Shown: in pieces, positions 17,621-63,919 of the stretch | How positions within the stretch are numbered: the first letter of the stretch is position 1 | How the letters are laid out: each line of letters starts with the position of its first letter | Program-made: the position numbers and the translations under genes | IMG/VR virus record: IMGVR_UViG_3300029740_000238 | Reading direction: 5' to 3' (one strand) | Source: a virus | Lineage: Duplodnaviria; Heunggongvirae; Uroviricota; Caudoviricetes | DNA: 64,000 nucleotides | The notes under the pieces: model-generated | What the model saw: the letters and a program-made list of their open reading frames with translations, nothing else | Databases searched by the model: none | Told to the model about the DNA's origin: nothing

Positions 17621-17657
17621 CTTGCGAACGGCATACAATAAGTGTTGTACGACAGAT
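17621..17657 (+). promoter_or_regulatory. Recurrent promoter-like motif (TTGCGAACGGCATACAAT) plus a downstream inverted partner TTGTACGACAGATA
   Basis: A member of the GTGCGAAT..TACAAT family. Confidence 0.45.
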
Positions 17658-17697
17658 AATAAACCGACATCAACCATTCATAATCTGACAAATTCAG

Positions 17698-17731
17698 ACA
17701 GGCACCAATCGGGTGACCTGTCTTTTTTGTT
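17698..17731 (+). terminator. Leader hairpin plus T-run between the promoter-like motif and the 17769 gene
   Basis: GACAGG ... CCTGTC stem followed by TTTTTTG. Confidence 0.45.
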
Positions 17732-17768
17732 GCAAGACCGCGTAATGCGGAGAAAGTCGAGAAAAGCT

Positions 17769-18119
17769 ATGAACACCATTATGAACACCGCCGAATTCAT
17801 CCGCGTTACCGACCTCCTGAAGAAGGAGAAAATTGCCAAAAATAGCGTCAACATATTTGCCGCTATGATGGCGATGCGCGAGAACCGCCCCGAAGCAATC
17901 TGCGCAGATGGCTTTAAGATGTCTATCCAGGCATCCGAAGACCACTACTGCCAGAAGGACGACGAGGGGAGCTACGTGAGCGTAGAAGTCGGGTTCCCGT
18001 CTCCGTCCGAGCCATTGCTCGACGAATATGGTGATGACGGAGTGTACGGCTATGTGCCGCTCACTGTTGTCGATGCCATCATCGCCAAGCACGGTGGAAT
18101 CCTGCTCGATGAGCAGTAA
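17769..18119 (+). CDS. Small hypothetical protein
   Basis: 116 aa. Its N-terminus (MNTIMNTAEF) resembles the N-termini of the two downstream paralogs. Confidence 0.5.
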   Translation: MNTIMNTAEFIRVTDLLKKEKIAKNSVNIFAAMMAMRENRPEAICADGFKMSIQASEDHYCQKDDEGSYVSVEVGFPSPSEPLLDEYGDDGVYGYVPLTVVDAIIAKHGGILLDEQ

Positions 18120-18252
18120 GCCACTCTATCCAATTCCAGCATGACATTCGGCTGCACGCCGTATGCTCATATATGAAGCAGTTATCGTAAAAATGATAGC
18201 TGCTATTTTTATTTTACAAGCCTCGAAAATACGAGGAGAAAGAGAGTTTGCT

Positions 18253-19413
18253 ATGAAAACCGCTATGAACACCAACATCAACACCAACACTACCAATTCC
18301 AAGAAAGTTATCCCCGGCATCAATGACGTGGCTACCAAATGCCCTAAGGTCGCTGCCATGTGGAGTGACAAGAACACCTTCTCTCCCAGTAAAGTGGCTG
18401 CGGGAAGCAGAAGAAAGTTCACATTTGTTTGCCCAGACTGTGGGCAGGAATTTGAAAGCAAAATCTTTAGTGTTGTTCGTTCGGTAATGAACGGTAACAC
18501 TGGTTGCCCTGTTTGTGCAGGTAAAAAGATTGTTTCCGGCATCAATGATGTGGCTACTAAGTGCCCTATGGCCGCTGCCATGTGGAGTGACAAGAACGCT
18601 TTCACTCCCAGTGAAGCACCTGCAGGAAGCCACAAAAAAGCCATTTTTGTGTGTCCTGATTGCGGACAAGAGTTTGAGTCTTCCATTTGCAATGTCGTCA
18701 ACTCTTTGATGCATTACCGCACCGGTTGTCCCGTTTGTCGTGGCTTGAAAGTGGTTTCCGGAATCAACGACTTGGCTACTAAGTGCCCTGCAGCAGCCAA
18801 CATGTGGGGCAGCAAAAACGCTTGCTCTCCAAATGAGGTATCTGCAGGCAACAACAAAATGGCATGGTTTGTCTGCCCCGACTGCAAACAGGAGTTTAAG
18901 GCTCCCGTTTGCAACGTCGTCAATTCTTTGTTGCATGACAATACCGGTTGCCCTGTTTGTGCAGGTCGCAAAGCTGTTTCCGGCGTCAACGATTTGGCGA
19001 CCATGTATCCAAAAGCCGCTGCTATGTGGAGCGGCAAGAACGATTACGCCCCCAGCAAAATTCCTGCTCGGTCGTCCAGACGCGCAATTTTTGTGTGCCC
19101 CGATTGCAAACAAGAGTTTGTGACAAGCATCCACAACATGACGCGGGCTATTGCATCCGGTGTTACTTGCTGCCCCAATTGCAGAATGCGAGGACATACT
19201 ATCGGTGCGATTTACAAGGATGAGTATGGTTCGCCGAAATCTGTTGGCACTACGATGACGATGAAGGACGGCAGCAAAGCCACCTGCACCGCTTATCATG
19301 GTGTCAACAACATCACCGTCGAGTTCGAAGACGGGTTCGTTCTGTACCATGCTCGCTGGAATCAGTTTATCCGTGGCGCTCTTCACCACGGTCAGAAAAC
19401 CACTGAAGAATAA
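18253..19413 (+). CDS. Protein with four tandem ~70-aa zinc-ribbon repeats (GINDxATKCP ... W ... KN ... CPDC ... GCPVC)
   Basis: Internal repeats were seen directly. RBS GAGGAGAAAG. Paralogous to the next gene. Confidence 0.7.
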   Translation: MKTAMNTNINTNTTNSKKVIPGINDVATKCPKVAAMWSDKNTFSPSKVAAGSRRKFTFVCPDCGQEFESKIFSVVRSVMNGNTGCPVCAGKKIVSGINDVATKCPMAAAMWSDKNAFTPSEAPAGSHKKAIFVCPDCGQEFESSICNVVNSLMHYRTGCPVCRGLKVVSGINDLATKCPAAANMWGSKNACSPNEVSAGNNKMAWFVCPDCKQEFKAPVCNVVNSLLHDNTGCPVCAGRKAVSGVNDLATMYPKAAAMWSGKNDYAPSKIPARSSRRAIFVCPDCKQEFVTSIHNMTRAIASGVTCCPNCRMRGHTIGAIYKDEYGSPKSVGTTMTMKDGSKATCTAYHGVNNITVEFEDGFVLYHARWNQFIRGALHHGQKTTEE

Positions 19414-19542
19414 TAAAAAGCCATCTGATACGAAGTTGGCTTGTGAATGTGAATGTAGCAGCTATCATCTTCCTCCAGTAGGGGGATGGTCGCTGCTTTT
19501 TTATTACAAGCCTCGAATGTTACGAGGAGAAAGAGAAAAATT

Positions 19543-62560: not shown

Positions 62561-62575
62561 CGCTTGCCAAAATAT

Positions 62576-62609
62576 ACGAACGCCGTACAATGTAAAGTGT
62601 GAACAGATA
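62576..62609 (+). promoter_or_regulatory. Promoter-like motif ACGAACGCCGTACAAT with a downstream GTGTGAACAGATA partner
   Basis: Resembles the 17621 copy. Confidence 0.35.
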
Positions 62610-62645
62610 CTAAGCAATCAGTAGGATTCACAATCTGTATTTTAA

Positions 62646-62685
62646 GCGGACTTATCCCATAGCGGGGTAGGTCCGCTTTTTTTGT
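62646..62685 (+). terminator. Hairpin plus T-run in the leader of the MBL-lipoprotein gene (may also terminate the upstream small genes)
   Basis: GCGGACTTATCCC ... GGGGTAGGTCCGC stem followed by TTTTTTTG. Confidence 0.5.
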
Positions 62686-62702
62686 TGAAAGGAGAAGAAT
62701 TC

Positions 62703-63863
62703 ATGAAAATCAAAAACAAGTTTTTACGGAGTACAGCGGCAATCATCGCTACGCTCCTAGCACTCAGCTTCACCGGCTGCGGTCAGAATCCGATAATATC
62801 GGAAAGTCCATCCAGCACCGGGGTCGTCTCAGAAAGCACTGCAAGCAGTGAACAGACGGCTGGCGGTTCGGTGGACGGCAGCTTTACCATTCACTTTATA
62901 GACGTAGGGCAGGCGGATTCCGCCCTTATCACCTGCGACGGCCACTCAATGCTTATTGATGGCGGTAATGTCGATGATTCTAACCTCTTATATTCTGTTA
63001 TGCAGCGTGAAACCGATGGGCACCTGGATTATGCCGTTGGGACTCACGCGCACGAAGACCACATCGGCGGCTTGTCCGGTGCTTTTGAGGCCGTCACTGC
63101 GAACATGACTCTATGCCCTGTGACAGAATACGACAGCAAAGCATTTCGGGACTTTGCAAGCTACGCGGAGCAAAAAGGCGGAGGCATCACGATACCGGAT
63201 GTGGGTGAAACCTACACTCTGGGGGAAGCGGAATTCACGATAGTTGGTGTTAATTCTGTTCCCGGTGACACGAACAATACTTCGATTGTTTTGCGTATTG
63301 TCTATGGAGACACCTCGTTCCTCTTTACCGGAGATGCGGAACAGGAAGCGGAAAACGTGATACTTGCATCGGGACAAGACATTCAGTCAACAGTTCTGAA
63401 AGTAGGGCACCATGGCTCAAGTACATCTACCTCAGAGGCTTTTCTGGATGCGGTAAATCCAACATATGCTGTGATTTCTTGTGGCACAGGGAACAGTTAC
63501 GGTCATCCACATCAGGAAACACTCGACAAGTTGCAAAACAAAGGTGTCGAGGTTTATCGCACAGACCTGCTGGGTGATATTTACTGCACCTCGGATGGCA
63601 AAGAGGTAAGTTTCACTTCCGGTGAATATCATGATGAAAATCGGATTGAAGCCGGTAGTGCTGCAGATTCCAAGGATGAACAGGACAAAGCTTCACTTGT
63701 CATAGACGAGACATACGTTCTGAACACGAGCACTATGAAGTTTCACAAACCCGATTGCTCTGCAGTCGAATCGATGAGTCAAAAGAATCGAATCGACTAT
63801 ATGGGGCCCCGCGATGAGCTCATCCAGGAAGGGTATTCGGCGTGTGGGATTTGCAAACCATAA
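62703..63863 (+). CDS. Secreted metallo-beta-lactamase-fold lipoprotein (ComEC C-terminal-domain-like hydrolase)
   Basis: Lipobox LSFTGC. THAHEDH metal-binding motif plus VGHHGS. RBS GAAAGGAGAAG. Confidence 0.8.
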   Translation: MKIKNKFLRSTAAIIATLLALSFTGCGQNPIISESPSSTGVVSESTASSEQTAGGSVDGSFTIHFIDVGQADSALITCDGHSMLIDGGNVDDSNLLYSVMQRETDGHLDYAVGTHAHEDHIGGLSGAFEAVTANMTLCPVTEYDSKAFRDFASYAEQKGGGITIPDVGETYTLGEAEFTIVGVNSVPGDTNNTSIVLRIVYGDTSFLFTGDAEQEAENVILASGQDIQSTVLKVGHHGSSTSTSEAFLDAVNPTYAVISCGTGNSYGHPHQETLDKLQNKGVEVYRTDLLGDIYCTSDGKEVSFTSGEYHDENRIEAGSAADSKDEQDKASLVIDETYVLNTSTMKFHKPDCSAVESMSQKNRIDYMGPRDELIQEGYSACGICKP

Positions 63864-63882
63864 AAATTGCACCTGATTTACT

Positions 63883-63919
63883 CGACAAGCTGTGCGAACC
63901 GACTACAATAAAAATTGTA
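63883..63919 (+). promoter_or_regulatory. Promoter-like motif GTGCGAACCGACTACAAT with an inverted partner AAATTGTACGATAGATA
   Basis: Palindromic-subtype family member at the window edge. Confidence 0.45.

What the first reader, a model, noticed from the sequence alone, without database searches (positions are those of the whole stretch)
17621..63919. About 15 copies of an 18-bp promoter-like motif GTGCGAATTGC-N-TACAAT upstream of cargo genes
Near-identical copies lie at 17621, 30793, 32975, 36387, 38976, 40186, 43321, 49593, 55235, 55756, 55862, 56852, 62576 and 63883, with a partial copy at 3068. Each sits 25-120 nt upstream of a start codon on the coding strand. The element does not fit a sigma-A -35/-10 arrangement: GTGCGAAT is only 4-5 nt from the TACAAT hexamer. 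This suggests an element-specific regulon controlled by a dedicated sigma factor or activator, possibly encoded on the element.
Basis: seen in the sequence. Interest (0 to 1): 0.85.

Follow-up and report, generated by a model that had tools for sequence, protein, structure and literature searches.

The report
Promoter family with a built-in regulator docking box
About twenty co-directional copies of an ordinary-type promoter carry an extra invariant 7-base box between their two standard elements; half are followed by a pause signal and a terminator, the layout used by phage lambda Q and Pseudomonas AlpA to switch genes on by antitermination, here controlling the accessory and anti-defence genes of a conjugative element from uncultured human-gut Clostridia.

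Summary
The repeated motif is real: 14 hits against 0.36 expected, and 19 copies on + plus 1 on - by weight matrix. The full unit is cTTGc-N6-GTGCGAAyyGCa-TAcAAT, followed by an A-rich stretch and a pyrimidine/purine start. That is a housekeeping sigma-A-type promoter, with GTGCGAA inside the spacer at about -25..-19.

The same unit occurs in more than 160 distinct promoters on related human-gut metagenome contigs. It is always co-oriented (282:0 and 156:0). It is absent from the element's type IV secretion genes and from the closest cultured relatives.

46% of the promoters (class B) also carry a -10-like hexamer at +2..+7 and one or two strong intrinsic terminators before the gene. The others (class A) lack both, and their box extends to an imperfect dyad.

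Box position, pause element and terminator match the AlpA and lambda-Q loading architecture. My best reading (about 0.45) is that the box docks an element-encoded factor that loads on RNA polymerase and allows read-through. A tandem three-HTH protein is the leading candidate.

A plain repressor-operator "establishment regulon" is the main rival. A dedicated sigma factor is not supported. This is a new variant of known kinds. No experiment was possible.

The parts
17508..17535 (-). Box promoter on the minus strand (TTGCCG-16-TACAAT, box ATGCGAG), divergent from 17612-17639, upstream of the RHS-repeat gene 16399-17502(-)
   Evidence: PWM 24.6; listed by the sigma-70 scan
17612..17639 (+). Box promoter (TTGACG / TTGCGAA / TACAAT); TGTACGACAGATAA start box; strong terminator just upstream (17563-17594)
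24237..24264 (+). Box promoter, class B (TCGACA / GTGCGAA / TATAAT), followed by leader terminator 24295-24330
24295..24330 (+). Intrinsic-terminator-like hairpin (-23.6 kcal/mol) plus T-run, starting 24 nt after the predicted start
30616..30643 (+). Box promoter, class B; short unit ending at terminator 30742-30778
30742..30778 (+). Terminator-like hairpin (-21 kcal/mol) between the tandem promoters 30626 and 30793
30783..30810 (+). Box promoter, class A (TTGCGG / GTGCGAATTGCG / GACAAT), upstream of HEARO RNA 30881-31141 and flotillin gene 31199-32842
32965..32992 (+). Box promoter, class A, upstream of ORF ~33048-33439
36378..36405 (+). Box promoter, class A (box GTGCAAA), upstream of PLD-family nuclease gene 36749-38914
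38966..38993 (+). Best-scoring box promoter (class A, full TGCGAATTGCA dyad), upstream of the three-HTH gene
   Evidence: PWM 44; sequence
39029..39544 (+). Tandem three-HTH protein (Mor/CD3324-like), the candidate box-binding factor. Annotated start is ATG 39077; the true start is probably upstream
   Evidence: Pfam Mor, HTH_28 and HTH_23; NCBIfam CD3324; three 3-helix modules at pLDDT 85; homologues keep the N-terminal helix
40176..40203 (+). Box promoter, class A, upstream of operon 40243-42449, which includes an AcrVA2-like gene at 40836-41723
42589..42616 (+). Weak box promoter (GTGCAAT), upstream of ORF 42644-43252
   Evidence: PWM 22
43311..43338 (+). Box promoter, class B, flanked by an upstream terminator (43260-43293) and a leader terminator
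43371..43399 (+). Leader terminator (-17.5 kcal/mol) before the small membrane ORF 43427-43624
43639..43663 (+). Second terminator, 17 nt before the helicase start at 43680. The helicase has no room for a promoter of its own
49583..49610 (+). Box promoter, class B (TATGAT -10; -10-like TAAAAT at +2..+7)
49635..49710 (+). Two tandem leader terminators (49635-49663 at -18.8 and 49673-49710 at -24.7 kcal/mol) immediately before the type I methylase gene (start ~49731)
54522..54549 (+). Weak box promoter (ATGCGAA / TACAAG)
   Evidence: PWM 20.5
54819..54846 (+). Box promoter (GTGCGAT / TAGAAT)
55225..55252 (+).
55746..55773 (+). Box promoter, class B, with TGTACGACAGATA start box; short unit ending at terminator 55817-55854
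55817..55854 (+). Terminator (-22.4 kcal/mol) ending the 55756 unit; abuts the next promoter
55852..55879 (+). Box promoter without a TTG -35 (the T-run of the preceding terminator occupies it), upstream of lipoprotein-like ORF 55904-56311
56842..56869 (+). Box promoter, class B (-10-like TAAGAT at +2..+7), upstream of UvrD-like helicase gene 56956-59676
56891..56929 (+). Leader terminator (-28.4 kcal/mol). It is conserved, with changed stem bases, in a helicase lineage only 42-57% identical at protein level
62564..62591 (+). Box promoter, class B (box ATACGAA), upstream of MBL-fold (Apyc1-like, faint) gene 62703-63863
62643..62679 (+). Leader terminator (-26 kcal/mol) before the MBL-fold gene
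63882..63909 (+). Box promoter, class B (-10-like TACGAT at +2..+7; conserved ~100-nt leader). Its terminator lies beyond the window end

Best explanation
The motif is the core of a family of housekeeping (sigma-A/sigma-70-type) promoters. Each has -35 TTGc, a fixed 16-nt spacer, -10 TAcAAT, an A-rich discriminator, and a start at a pyrimidine/purine step about 8 nt after the -10. These promoters are specific to one family of conjugative elements of uncultured human-gut Clostridia.

The extra invariant box GTGCGAA lies inside the spacer, at about -25..-19. I read it as the docking site of an element-encoded DNA-binding factor that acts on RNA polymerase at the promoter.

Class B, about half of the promoters, has the complete architecture of a DNA-loaded processive antitermination unit of the lambda-Q / AlpA kind:
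- a factor site between -35 and -10;
- a -10-like hexamer (TAnnAT) at +2..+7 that should hold sigma-containing polymerase in a promoter-proximal pause;
- one or two strong intrinsic terminators before the ORF.

Without the factor these units should give only 45-110-nt RNAs. With it, polymerase should read through into helicase, methylase, MBL-fold and other accessory or anti-defence genes, and possibly through the terminators between cassettes of the co-directional array.

Class A promoters lack the pause element and the terminator. Their box extends to an imperfect dyad (TGCGA-A-TTGCA). They may be expressed directly, or repressed by the same factor.

The tandem three-HTH protein at 39029/39077-39544, and its paralogues, is the leading candidate for the factor.

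Shown here: the sequence architecture, its conservation, its co-orientation, and the statistical coupling of pause element and terminator.
Inferred: the start site, pausing, factor binding, read-through, and the identity of the factor.
For: Promoter geometry:
- Among 151-161 distinct copies, TTG is 96-99% conserved, box TGCGA 97-100%, -10 A2/A5/T6 93-99%, and 142/151 have a purine at index 39. Flanks are A/T-rich upstream and otherwise unconserved.
- The independent sigma-70 scan lists many copies with a 16-nt spacer.
- GTGCGAA occurs 110 times inside fixed-register promoters, against 27 elsewhere on that strand and 26 on the other strand. Only one instance has a shifted register.
- All copies are co-oriented: 282:0. 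In loci picked by protein rather than by motif the count is 156:0, and 43/43 loci are positive.

Conservation:
- The motif and the leader hairpin are kept in an orthologous region whose proteins are only 42-57% identical.

Leader terminators:
- Strong hairpin plus T-run within 130 nt of the start in 74/161 promoters, against 5/161 control windows.
- TAnnnT at index 40 in 41/161, against a background of 2.2; 40 of those 41 have a leader terminator.
- In the terminator class, T40 is 86%, A41 86% and T45 62%. In the other class they are 18%, 62% and 10%.
- At the level of 50 unrelated leader families, 10/14 against 5/36 have TA (p=1.8e-4).
- The best -10-like score is higher in the terminator class (p=8e-11; copies not independent).

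Genes behind terminators:
- Helicase 43680 and methylase 49731 each sit behind two terminators, with 17-22 nt and no room for a promoter of their own.

Geometry of the known systems:
- AlpA's binding element GGGACG lies at -25..-20 between -35 and -10. Its -10-like CACGAT lies at -1..+5, and terminator tB lies downstream. One protomer binds through an HTH (PMC9371919).

Candidate factor:
- It is the commonest gene behind the motif, although that sample is biased.
- Apart from one HTH_3 protein, it is the only DNA-binding protein found in the window.
- It has three HTH modules, with weak fold resemblance to the multi-HTH protein Cbp1.
- It is absent from relatives that lack the motif.
Against: - About 54% of box promoters have neither a pause-like element nor a leader terminator, yet they keep the box. 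In fact its right half is better conserved there. That fits an operator better than a loading site.
- No protein homologous to Q or AlpA was found. The three-HTH protein has no known antiterminator relative.
- Known Q/AlpA systems serve one to a few promoters, not about 20 per element.
- Only 4 of 14 terminator-class leader families have the full TAnnnT.
- The promoter copies are related by descent, so counts of copies overstate independence.
- The 32 kb held from the second element (HRGM_Genome_2451) has box promoters but no three-HTH gene.
- Start sites and terminator function are predictions only.
Confidence: 0.45

Rival explanations
1. Repressor-operator 'establishment regulon'. The box, a dyad in class A, is the operator of an element-encoded repressor, possibly the autoregulated three-HTH protein. 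The repressor occludes otherwise constitutive sigma-A promoters in the established state. After transfer into a naive cell all promoters fire until repressor accumulates (zygotic induction). This is how Reg576 works on the EGeRS2 promoters of p576, and how Aca proteins work on anti-CRISPR promoters. The leader terminators would be unrelated, gene-specific attenuators or insulators.
For: - The promoters look self-sufficient for sigma-A.
- The box overlaps the spacer, where binding would block polymerase.
- Class A has an imperfect 5-1-5 dyad TGCGA-A-TTGCA, with its right arm 70-93% conserved.
- The candidate regulator gene carries the best-scoring copy.
- The cargo is enriched in anti-defence-like genes: AcrVA2-like, Apyc1-like (faint), NADAR, a methylase and helicases.
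- Precedents exist: p576 (PMC8708921) and Aca proteins that regulate several operons (PMC13551039).
Against: - It does not explain the position-specific -10-like element at +2..+7, or its tight coupling to leader terminators across unrelated leaders.
- It does not explain tandem terminators directly in front of ORFs.
- It does not explain why the box never appears as an auxiliary operator outside the fixed register.
- In class B only the left half-site is conserved. That is odd for a dimeric repressor.
Confidence: 0.3
2. The motif is read by a dedicated element-encoded sigma factor, or needs a classical activator, so the genes form a sigma- or activator-specific regulon.
For: - The box is as invariant as the -35 and -10 and stands in a strictly fixed register with them. 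That is what direct read-out by the holoenzyme or by a polymerase-bound activator would give.
- A distantly related Vescimonas element encodes two small sigma-70/ECF-type proteins next to ssb and ardC-like genes.
- The candidate protein has Mor-type (activator family) and sigma-region-4-like HTHs.
Against: - Canonical TTG-16-TAcAAT with conserved A-11/T-7 equivalents fits the housekeeping sigma.
- No sigma gene was found by Pfam or NCBIfam in about 70 window ORFs.
- tblastn with SigA and with the Vescimonas sigmas found nothing in 1.2 Mb of motif-bearing loci.
- Mor/C activators bind upstream of promoters that lack a -35 (established knowledge). Here the -35 is invariant and the box is in the spacer.
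- The Vescimonas and Subdoligranulum elements lack the motif.
Confidence: 0.1
3. No trans-acting factor at all. The whole 28-40 nt unit is simply an optimised strong-promoter module for the host polymerase that spread through the element family by duplication and recombination. T4 early promoters, from my recall, likewise share conserved positions beyond -35 and -10. A weaker version is that it is the host's generic promoter consensus.
For: - UP-like A/T tract, A-rich discriminator and Y/R start are all typical of strong promoters.
- Single chromosomal promoters with GTGCGAAT in the spacer exist in various Clostridia.
Against: - Positions between the blocks are saturated with change while the box stays 97-100% conserved. 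This indicates selection on the box itself.
- The chromosomal singletons fit chance expectation and precede unrelated genes.
- The element's own T4SS operon and other cassettes use box-less promoters.
- The closest cultured relatives lack the box.
- The coupling to pause elements and terminators is left unexplained.
Confidence: 0.1

Closest known systems
AlpA-dependent antitermination at PalpB of Pseudomonas aeruginosa (PMC9371919, PMC7969949)
   Same: - A short asymmetric factor-binding element lies in the spacer between -35 and -10 (ABE at -25..-20; here the box at about -25..-19).
- A -10-like hexamer lies at the start of the transcript (CACGAT at -1..+5; here TAnnAT, often TACGAT, at +2..+7).
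- An intrinsic terminator lies between promoter and genes.
- The factor is encoded by a mobile-element-like locus and uses an HTH.
   Different: - No sequence or fold homologue of AlpA was found.
- There are about 20 promoters per element instead of two or so.
- Only about half of the promoters have the pause and terminator part.
- The host is Gram-positive.
- The candidate factor has three HTH modules.
- Nothing has been tested experimentally.
Lambdoid phage Q proteins with QBE and the sigma-dependent pause at PR' (PMC9388147, PMC6606751, PMC4005639)
   Same: The loading site is embedded in a sigma-70-type promoter. A promoter-proximal -10-like pause inducer follows (lambda has AACGAT at +1..+6, from my recall). 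A short terminated RNA is made unless the factor is present, and read-through of later terminators is processive.
   Different: No Q homologue. There are many dispersed promoter-terminator cassettes instead of one late operon. The element is conjugative, not a phage.
Reg576 / EGeRS2 establishment regulon of Bacillus plasmid p576 (PMC8708921)
   Same: A conserved regulatory sequence is repeated in several strong sigma-A promoters upstream of variable establishment or anti-restriction operons on a Gram-positive conjugative element. The regulator gene sits behind one of them. The conjugation genes themselves are regulated separately.
   Different: The Reg operator is a dual heptamer (TTATCCCnnTTATCCC) upstream of the -35, sometimes also after the start. 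It is not a single box in the spacer. Reg is an RHH protein. There are four promoters rather than about 20. No pause and terminator signature is described.
Aca (anti-CRISPR-associated) HTH autorepressors (PMC13551039)
   Same: HTH proteins bind a motif inside the promoters of anti-defence operons, and some are predicted to co-regulate several operons. An AcrVA2-like gene lies in one box-driven operon here.
   Different: Aca sites are inverted repeats bound by dimers. No Aca family hit was obtained. The scale and fixed register differ.
ConAn (pLS20) and Tn916 antitermination systems of Gram-positive conjugative elements (PMC8191782, PMC11658703)
   Same: Processive antitermination is an established way for Gram-positive conjugative elements to express genes across multiple terminators.
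   Different: From my recall of those systems (only their abstracts were seen here), they act at a single leader of the conjugation operon through an RNA or protein made there. Here the conjugation operon lacks the motif, and the signal is a DNA box repeated in many promoters.

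Membership tests
Housekeeping sigma-70/sigma-A-type promoter | -35 TTGACA-like and -10 TATAAT-like hexamers separated by 16-18 bp | tested here: met
   TTG 96-99% conserved, TAcAAT with A2/A5/T6 93-99%, spacer 16 in all copies found by the matrix. An independent scan lists them.
Housekeeping sigma-70/sigma-A-type promoter | Start at a purine 6-9 nt after the -10, preceded by a pyrimidine; mapped 5' ends | tested here: inconclusive
   The sequence signature is present (T at index 38 in 103/151; purine at index 39 in 142/151). 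No transcript data were available.
Q / AlpA-type DNA-loaded antitermination unit | Factor-binding DNA element embedded in the promoter, between or next to -35 and -10 | tested here: inconclusive
   An invariant box lies at about -25..-19, the same position as the ABE at -25..-20. Protein binding was not testable.
Q / AlpA-type DNA-loaded antitermination unit | -10-like sigma-dependent pause element in the initially transcribed region | tested here: met
   Met in class B only. T40 86%, A41 86%, T45 62%; TAnnnT at index 40 is 19-fold over background. Absent from class A.
Q / AlpA-type DNA-loaded antitermination unit | Intrinsic terminator between promoter and regulated genes | tested here: met
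   74/161 promoters against 5/161 controls. Window examples include tandem terminators before 43680 and 49731. Terminator activity itself was not tested.
Q / AlpA-type DNA-loaded antitermination unit | A Q- or AlpA-family protein encoded nearby | tested here: not met
   No such family appeared in Pfam, NCBIfam or PHROGs scans of about 70 window ORFs. Therefore this is not filed as a member, only as working like one.
Q / AlpA-type DNA-loaded antitermination unit | Factor-dependent read-through of terminators | not testable with these tools
   Needs in vitro transcription or reporter assays.
Repressor-operator establishment regulon (p576 Reg/EGeRS2; Aca-like) | The same operator in several strong promoters of establishment or anti-defence operons, including the regulator's own | tested here: met
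   About 20 promoters in the window. The candidate regulator gene lies behind the best copy. The cargo includes anti-defence-like genes.
Repressor-operator establishment regulon (p576 Reg/EGeRS2; Aca-like) | Repeat or dyad symmetry of the operator, and a homologous RHH or Aca regulator | tested here: inconclusive
   There is only an imperfect 5-1-5 dyad, and only in class A. No RHH or Aca family hit.
Alternative / ECF sigma regulon | Non-housekeeping -35/-10 consensus and a cognate sigma gene on the element | tested here: not met
   The consensus is housekeeping-like. No sigma gene in the window or in 1.2 Mb of loci. Divergent ECF sigmas outside the held sequence cannot be excluded.
Mor/C-type activator-dependent promoter (phage Mu) | Activator dyad upstream of or overlapping a missing -35; dimeric protein with one C-terminal HTH | tested here: not met
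   The -35 TTG is invariant and the box is in the spacer. The protein has three tandem HTH modules and only a local Mor-HTH match. The Mor/C site geometry is from established knowledge, not checked here.
Single-stranded-DNA promoters (Frpo) / EGeRS1 of leading regions | Long (hundreds of nt) inverted-repeat region that folds into a promoter in ssDNA | tested here: not met
   The unit is about 40 nt, has no long hairpin, and its flanks are unconserved. For comparison see PMC8708921.

The most novel reading that the evidence does not exclude
A previously unknown, DNA-loaded processive antiterminator of Gram-positive mobile elements. It may be the tandem three-HTH protein, which is unrelated to Q or AlpA. 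It would dock on a 7-bp box in the promoter spacer and service dozens of dispersed promoter-pause-terminator cassettes. This would be a 'distributed Q regulon' that times expression of the anti-defence and accessory arsenal of conjugative elements in gut Clostridia. The same box might double as an operator at terminator-less promoters.
Probability: 0.3. Interest if true: 0.8.

Novelty: new variant of a known kind. Interest (0 to 1): 0.62.

Why it matters
Discovery tool. If the box marks a coordinately controlled regulon, it becomes a cheap sequence flag for finding establishment and anti-defence genes in abundant, uncultured mobile elements of the human gut. Most genes behind it have no known function. 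The approach is guilt by association, as was done with Aca.

Mechanism. If class B units are Q/AlpA-like, DNA-loaded antitermination would extend to Gram-positive conjugative elements. It would work with a non-homologous factor and at an unprecedented number of promoters. It would also supply well-defined templates (49583-49731 and 56842-56956) for direct tests.

Engineering. The compact promoter and terminator cassettes could serve as parts for Clostridia.

Tried and rejected
Searches that led nowhere:
- Megablast of 24 kb of the window against the plasmid and phage collections gave no match.
- tblastn of the three-HTH protein against both collections gave no match.
- A full-text search for GTGCGAAT returned only primers.
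It was useful only for HRGM_Genome_2451. The singletons in Clostridia precede unrelated genes.
- A word-indexed protein search found only near-identical metagenome proteins.

Known sites considered by inspection, against consensus sequences recalled from memory, and rejected:
- Spo0A box TGTCGAA: one base out of register.
- Firmicute LexA box GAAC-N4-GTTC: wrong right arm and spacing.
- SigH -10 (CGAAT): no AGGA at -35.
- SigE/SigK CATACA-T: the C-A-T is not conserved.
- Sigma-54 GG-N10-GC: wrong spacing.
- Extended -10 TGn and the Gram-positive TRTG: the G/C is one position off.
- Rex and CRP-type boxes.

Other checks:
- Sigma genes were sought with SigA and with four Vescimonas sigma sequences; none were found.
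- RNAalifold on 14 copies of the conserved TGTACGATAGATA leader supported only the terminator stem, so I do not claim a structured RNA class.
- My first strict terminator detector gave 4/151. That was an artefact of a 79-nt window and no G-U pairs. It was replaced by an energy-filtered detector with controls.
- The Fisher test on copies (3.6e-16) overstates independence. I re-did it on 50 leader families.

Full report
**1. Observation**

The 18-mer GTGCGAATTGCNTACAAT with up to three mismatches occurs 14 times in the window. All 14 are on the + strand, against 0.36 expected by chance.

An almost invariant TTG lies exactly 16 nt upstream of TACAAT. A weight matrix over the 38-nt unit finds 19 copies on + and one on - at 17525. 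The two weakest are at 42599 and 54532. There are none in 1-17000.

'63883' is the -35 of the copy whose box starts at 63892. The 'partial copy' at 3068 is a chance GTGCGAAT.

**2. What the element is**

The window starts with type IV secretion genes: a coupling protein at 4-1563 and a VirB4/TraG-like ATPase at 4731-7400.

It continues with co-directional accessory genes:
- zinc-ribbon proteins;
- a Y-family polymerase;
- a SLOG protein;
- a flotillin;
- an IS200 insertion;
- a PLD nuclease;
- an AcrVA2-like protein;
- DEAD/ResIII and UvrD-like helicases;
- a NADAR protein;
- type I methylase and specificity subunits;
- an MBL-fold protein with a faint Apyc1 hit.

Identical genes lie on human-gut metagenome contigs of up to 265 kb. 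The nearest cultured type IV systems are on Oscillospiraceae replicons (Subdoligranulum and Vescimonas, 38% VirB4 identity). So this is a conjugative plasmid or ICE of uncultured gut Clostridia. Many relatives are filed in IMG/VR as viral contigs.

**3. The motif is a sigma-A-type promoter with an extra box**

Scanning those loci gave 151-161 distinct copies.

The logo from those copies shows:
- an A/T-rich tract upstream;
- S-TTG-C as the -35;
- a 16-nt spacer containing y-GTGCGAA-yyGCa;
- TAcAAT as the -10;
- an A-rich discriminator;
- T then a purine at indices 38/39 (142/151 purine).

Positions between these blocks carry no information. The conserved blocks are therefore under selection and are not merely recent duplicates.

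The statement that the motif does not fit a -35/-10 arrangement is therefore wrong. With the start at index 39, the box lies at -25..-19.

GTGCGAA occurs 110 times in this fixed register. It occurs only at background frequency elsewhere (27 against 26 on the opposite strand), with a single shifted example.

**4. Element specificity**

- The copies are strictly co-oriented, 282:0 across 120 loci.
- In 43 loci fetched through a 43%-identical paralogue of the HTH protein, that is, without reference to the motif, all 43 carry box promoters. There are 156 on the gene's strand and 0 on the other, about one per 2.3 kb.
- The secretion operon has none, in 27 kb including the upstream flank.
- Some cassettes in the accessory region use ordinary box-less promoters.
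- The Vescimonas and Subdoligranulum elements have none.
- The species-representative genome scan gave mostly chance singletons. The exception is one MAG, Clostridiales bacterium HRGM_Genome_2451. Its copies cluster at 152-184 kb of a 224-kb contig, next to sortase, Big_2 adhesin and topoisomerase genes typical of Gram-positive conjugative elements. A second contig of that MAG is syntenic with window 53.8-59.6 kb.
- In that syntenic region the proteins are only 42-57% identical, yet the promoter core and the helicase leader hairpin are retained.

**5. Two classes of promoter**

Class B is defined by a leader terminator.
- 74 of 161 distinct promoters have a strong terminator-like hairpin (-12 kcal/mol or lower, followed by a T-run) within 130 nt of the predicted start. 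Only 5 of 161 control windows do.
- In the window these are 24247, 30626, 43321, 49593, 55756, 56852 and 62574. 63892 also belongs here; its terminator lies past the window end.
- The helicase gene at 43680 lies behind two terminators, with 17 nt to spare. The methylase gene at 49731 lies behind two tandem terminators, with 22 nt to spare. These genes can only be transcribed by read-through.

Class B also carries a second, -10-like hexamer at a fixed place.
- TAnnnT starts at index 40 (+2..+7) in 41 of 161 copies, against a background of 2.2.
- 40 of those 41 have a leader terminator.
- In the terminator class T40, A41 and T45 are 86%, 86% and 62%. In the other class they are 18%, 62% and 10%.
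- Copies are related, so I repeated the test on 50 leader families clustered by downstream sequence. TA at index 40 is found in 10 of 14 terminator families against 5 of 36 others (p=1.8e-4). Full TAnnnT is found in 4 of 14 against 0 of 36 (p=0.004).

Class A promoters have no terminator. They keep the right half of the box better (70-93% against 43-73%), which gives an imperfect dyad TGCGA-A-TTGCA.

**6. Mechanism**

The class B layout has three parts: a short asymmetric protein site in the spacer, a -10-like element at the very start of the transcript, and then an intrinsic terminator. This is the defining layout of DNA-loaded antitermination.

In P. aeruginosa PalpB, the AlpA-binding element GGGACG lies at -25..-20 between -35 and -10. 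The -10-like CACGAT lies at -1..+5 and is required. Terminator tB follows. One AlpA protomer reads the DNA with an HTH while its other end enters the RNA exit channel (PMC9371919). Lambdoid Q proteins load the same way at a QBE next to a sigma-dependent pause (PMC9388147).

The spacing between box and pause element here agrees with PalpB to within about 1 nt.

I therefore take the box to be the docking site of an element-encoded factor. At class B promoters that factor would convert paused polymerase into a terminator-resistant form.

This reading also accounts for the strict register, the absence of free-standing boxes, the co-directional array, and the terminators between cassettes. 77 of 161 promoters have a strong terminator within 120 nt upstream.

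It does not by itself explain why class A promoters keep the box. A second role as an operator there is plausible. The overall confidence of 0.45 reflects this gap.

**7. Candidate factor**

The gene at 39077-39544 encodes three tandem three-helix HTH modules (Pfam Mor, HTH_28 and HTH_23; NCBIfam CD3324; AlphaFold pLDDT 85). It has only weak fold matches, to Cbp1 (a multi-HTH CRISPR-repeat binder), to the Tc3 bipartite domain, to LuxR/GerE and to Mu C. Its real start is probably upstream, because homologues keep the first helix.

Points in its favour:
- It lies behind the best-scoring box promoter.
- Its family is the commonest gene directly behind the motif: 40 instances, 31 distinct. This count is biased, because its promoter matches the pattern used to fetch the loci.
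- Three paralogues lie in tandem just beyond the window.
- The family is small (184 representatives among 1.84 billion proteins), consists of HTH arrays, and is known only from metagenomes.
- Relatives that lack the motif lack the family.

Points against:
- So does the 32 kb held from HRGM_Genome_2451, which has the motif.
- Nothing links the protein to RNA polymerase.

I put about 0.3 on this protein being the factor.

**8. Rivals**

(a) A repressor-operator establishment regulon, as in p576. There, four strong sigma-A promoters, including the regulator's own, carry Reg operators and fire transiently in the recipient (PMC8708921). Aca regulators are a similar case (PMC13551039). This fits class A and the gene content. 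It leaves the coupling of pause element and terminator unexplained. Confidence 0.3.

(b) A dedicated sigma factor or activator. The consensus is housekeeping-like. No sigma gene was found in the window or in 1.2 Mb of related loci. A distant Vescimonas element does carry small sigma genes. Confidence 0.1.

(c) An intrinsic strong-promoter module, or the host's own consensus. This is contradicted by the pattern of conservation, by the box-less promoters on the same element, and by the motif-less relatives. Confidence 0.1.

**9. Novelty**

Each ingredient has a precedent: shared regulatory sequences in the establishment promoters of conjugative elements, and Q/AlpA loading sites. The new features are:
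- the combination of the two;
- the scale (about 20 per 47 kb, and more than 160 distinct promoters);
- the Gram-positive gut-element context;
- the absence of any Q, AlpA, Reg or Aca homologue.

I class it as a new variant of a known kind. I do not file it as a member of the Q/AlpA family, because the protein criterion was tested and not met.

Start sites, pausing, termination, binding and read-through are all inferences from sequence.

Noticed in passing
window 47471-49357 (-): A 628-aa protein has an Xre-type HTH (aa 222-269). Its aa 110-166 align to the RNA polymerase beta' clamp helices (E. coli beta' 264-320), the docking site of sigma region 2 and of NusG/RfaH. E-values are 2e-7 (NCBIfam rpoC) and 1.6e-5 to 7e-4 against many PDB beta' chains. 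It could be a sigma- or NusG-binding decoy, and so may be relevant to transcription control of the element.
   Followed up: partly
window 30881-31141 (+): Full-length Rfam HEARO RNA (RF02033, the IscB omega-RNA family; 89.7 bits against a gathering score of 83). It lies about 63 nt downstream of box promoter 30793 and directly upstream of a flotillin/SPFH gene at 31199-32842. There is no IscB/HNH ORF next to it, so it is an orphan omega-like RNA driven by the motif promoter.
   Followed up: no
window 17645-17665, 55779-55800, 63915-64000; L128:12250-12360; 27 distinct copies in IMG/VR loci: About a quarter of the promoters start with an invariant (A/T)TGTACGATAGATA(A/C)C. This is followed by a variable hairpin, a conserved TTCACAAT, and a terminator. 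Together they make a leader or small-RNA family of about 100 nt in front of unrelated genes. RNAalifold supported only the terminator stem. Its role (pause site, protein-binding leader or sRNA) is unknown.
   Followed up: partly
window 38994-39080: The three-HTH gene has a good RBS (AAAGGAG, 39011-39017) but no canonical start codon at the right distance. In-frame ATC (39029) or TTG (39050) would restore the first helix that homologues conserve. The annotated ATG at 39077 truncates that helix. This suggests a non-canonical, low-efficiency start for a regulator.
   Followed up: partly
L129:10297-12290 (about 8-10 kb beyond the window's 3' end); L186, L143: There are three tandem multi-HTH paralogues (175, 172 and 317 aa; up to 4 HTH repeats) behind another box promoter. 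Elsewhere a 250-aa protein made of five SANT/Myb-like HTH repeats also sits behind a box promoter. In the wider family, HTH arrays reach more than 800 aa with up to 9 repeats.
   Followed up: partly
IMG/VR loci L131-L296: Contigs of 22-247 kb that carry this promoter family, and homologues of the window's accessory (cargo) genes, are catalogued as viral genomes (UViGs). Most come from one human-associated sample (3300045988). No phage structural hits were seen among the window proteins tested with PHROGs. The viral label is probably a misclassification of conjugative elements.
   Followed up: partly
window 33578-35720 (-); L127:3661-4770; L216, L222, L232: There is an IS200/IS605 transposase (35319-35720) with a 578-aa ORF on the opposite strand. 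In sister contigs, TnpB/Cas12f-like ORFs (381-490 aa), an IscB-like N-terminus (PLMP motif), or Cas7/Csd1 genes are inserted directly behind box promoters. The cassettes appear to be swapped between otherwise identical elements.
   Followed up: no
L252:2278-2895 and 7842-8354 (Vescimonas fastidiosa pMM35_02): The nearest cultured relative of the secretion system carries two small sigma-70/ECF-type genes next to ssb, DUF932 and a large methylase. It has no box promoters. This looks like a different solution to controlling the same kind of accessory region.
   Followed up: partly
window 43427-43624 (+): A 65-aa predicted membrane protein is enclosed between two strong terminators, behind a class B promoter and directly upstream of the DEAD/ResIII helicase gene. 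The arrangement is conserved at 98-100% identity in six loci.
   Followed up: no
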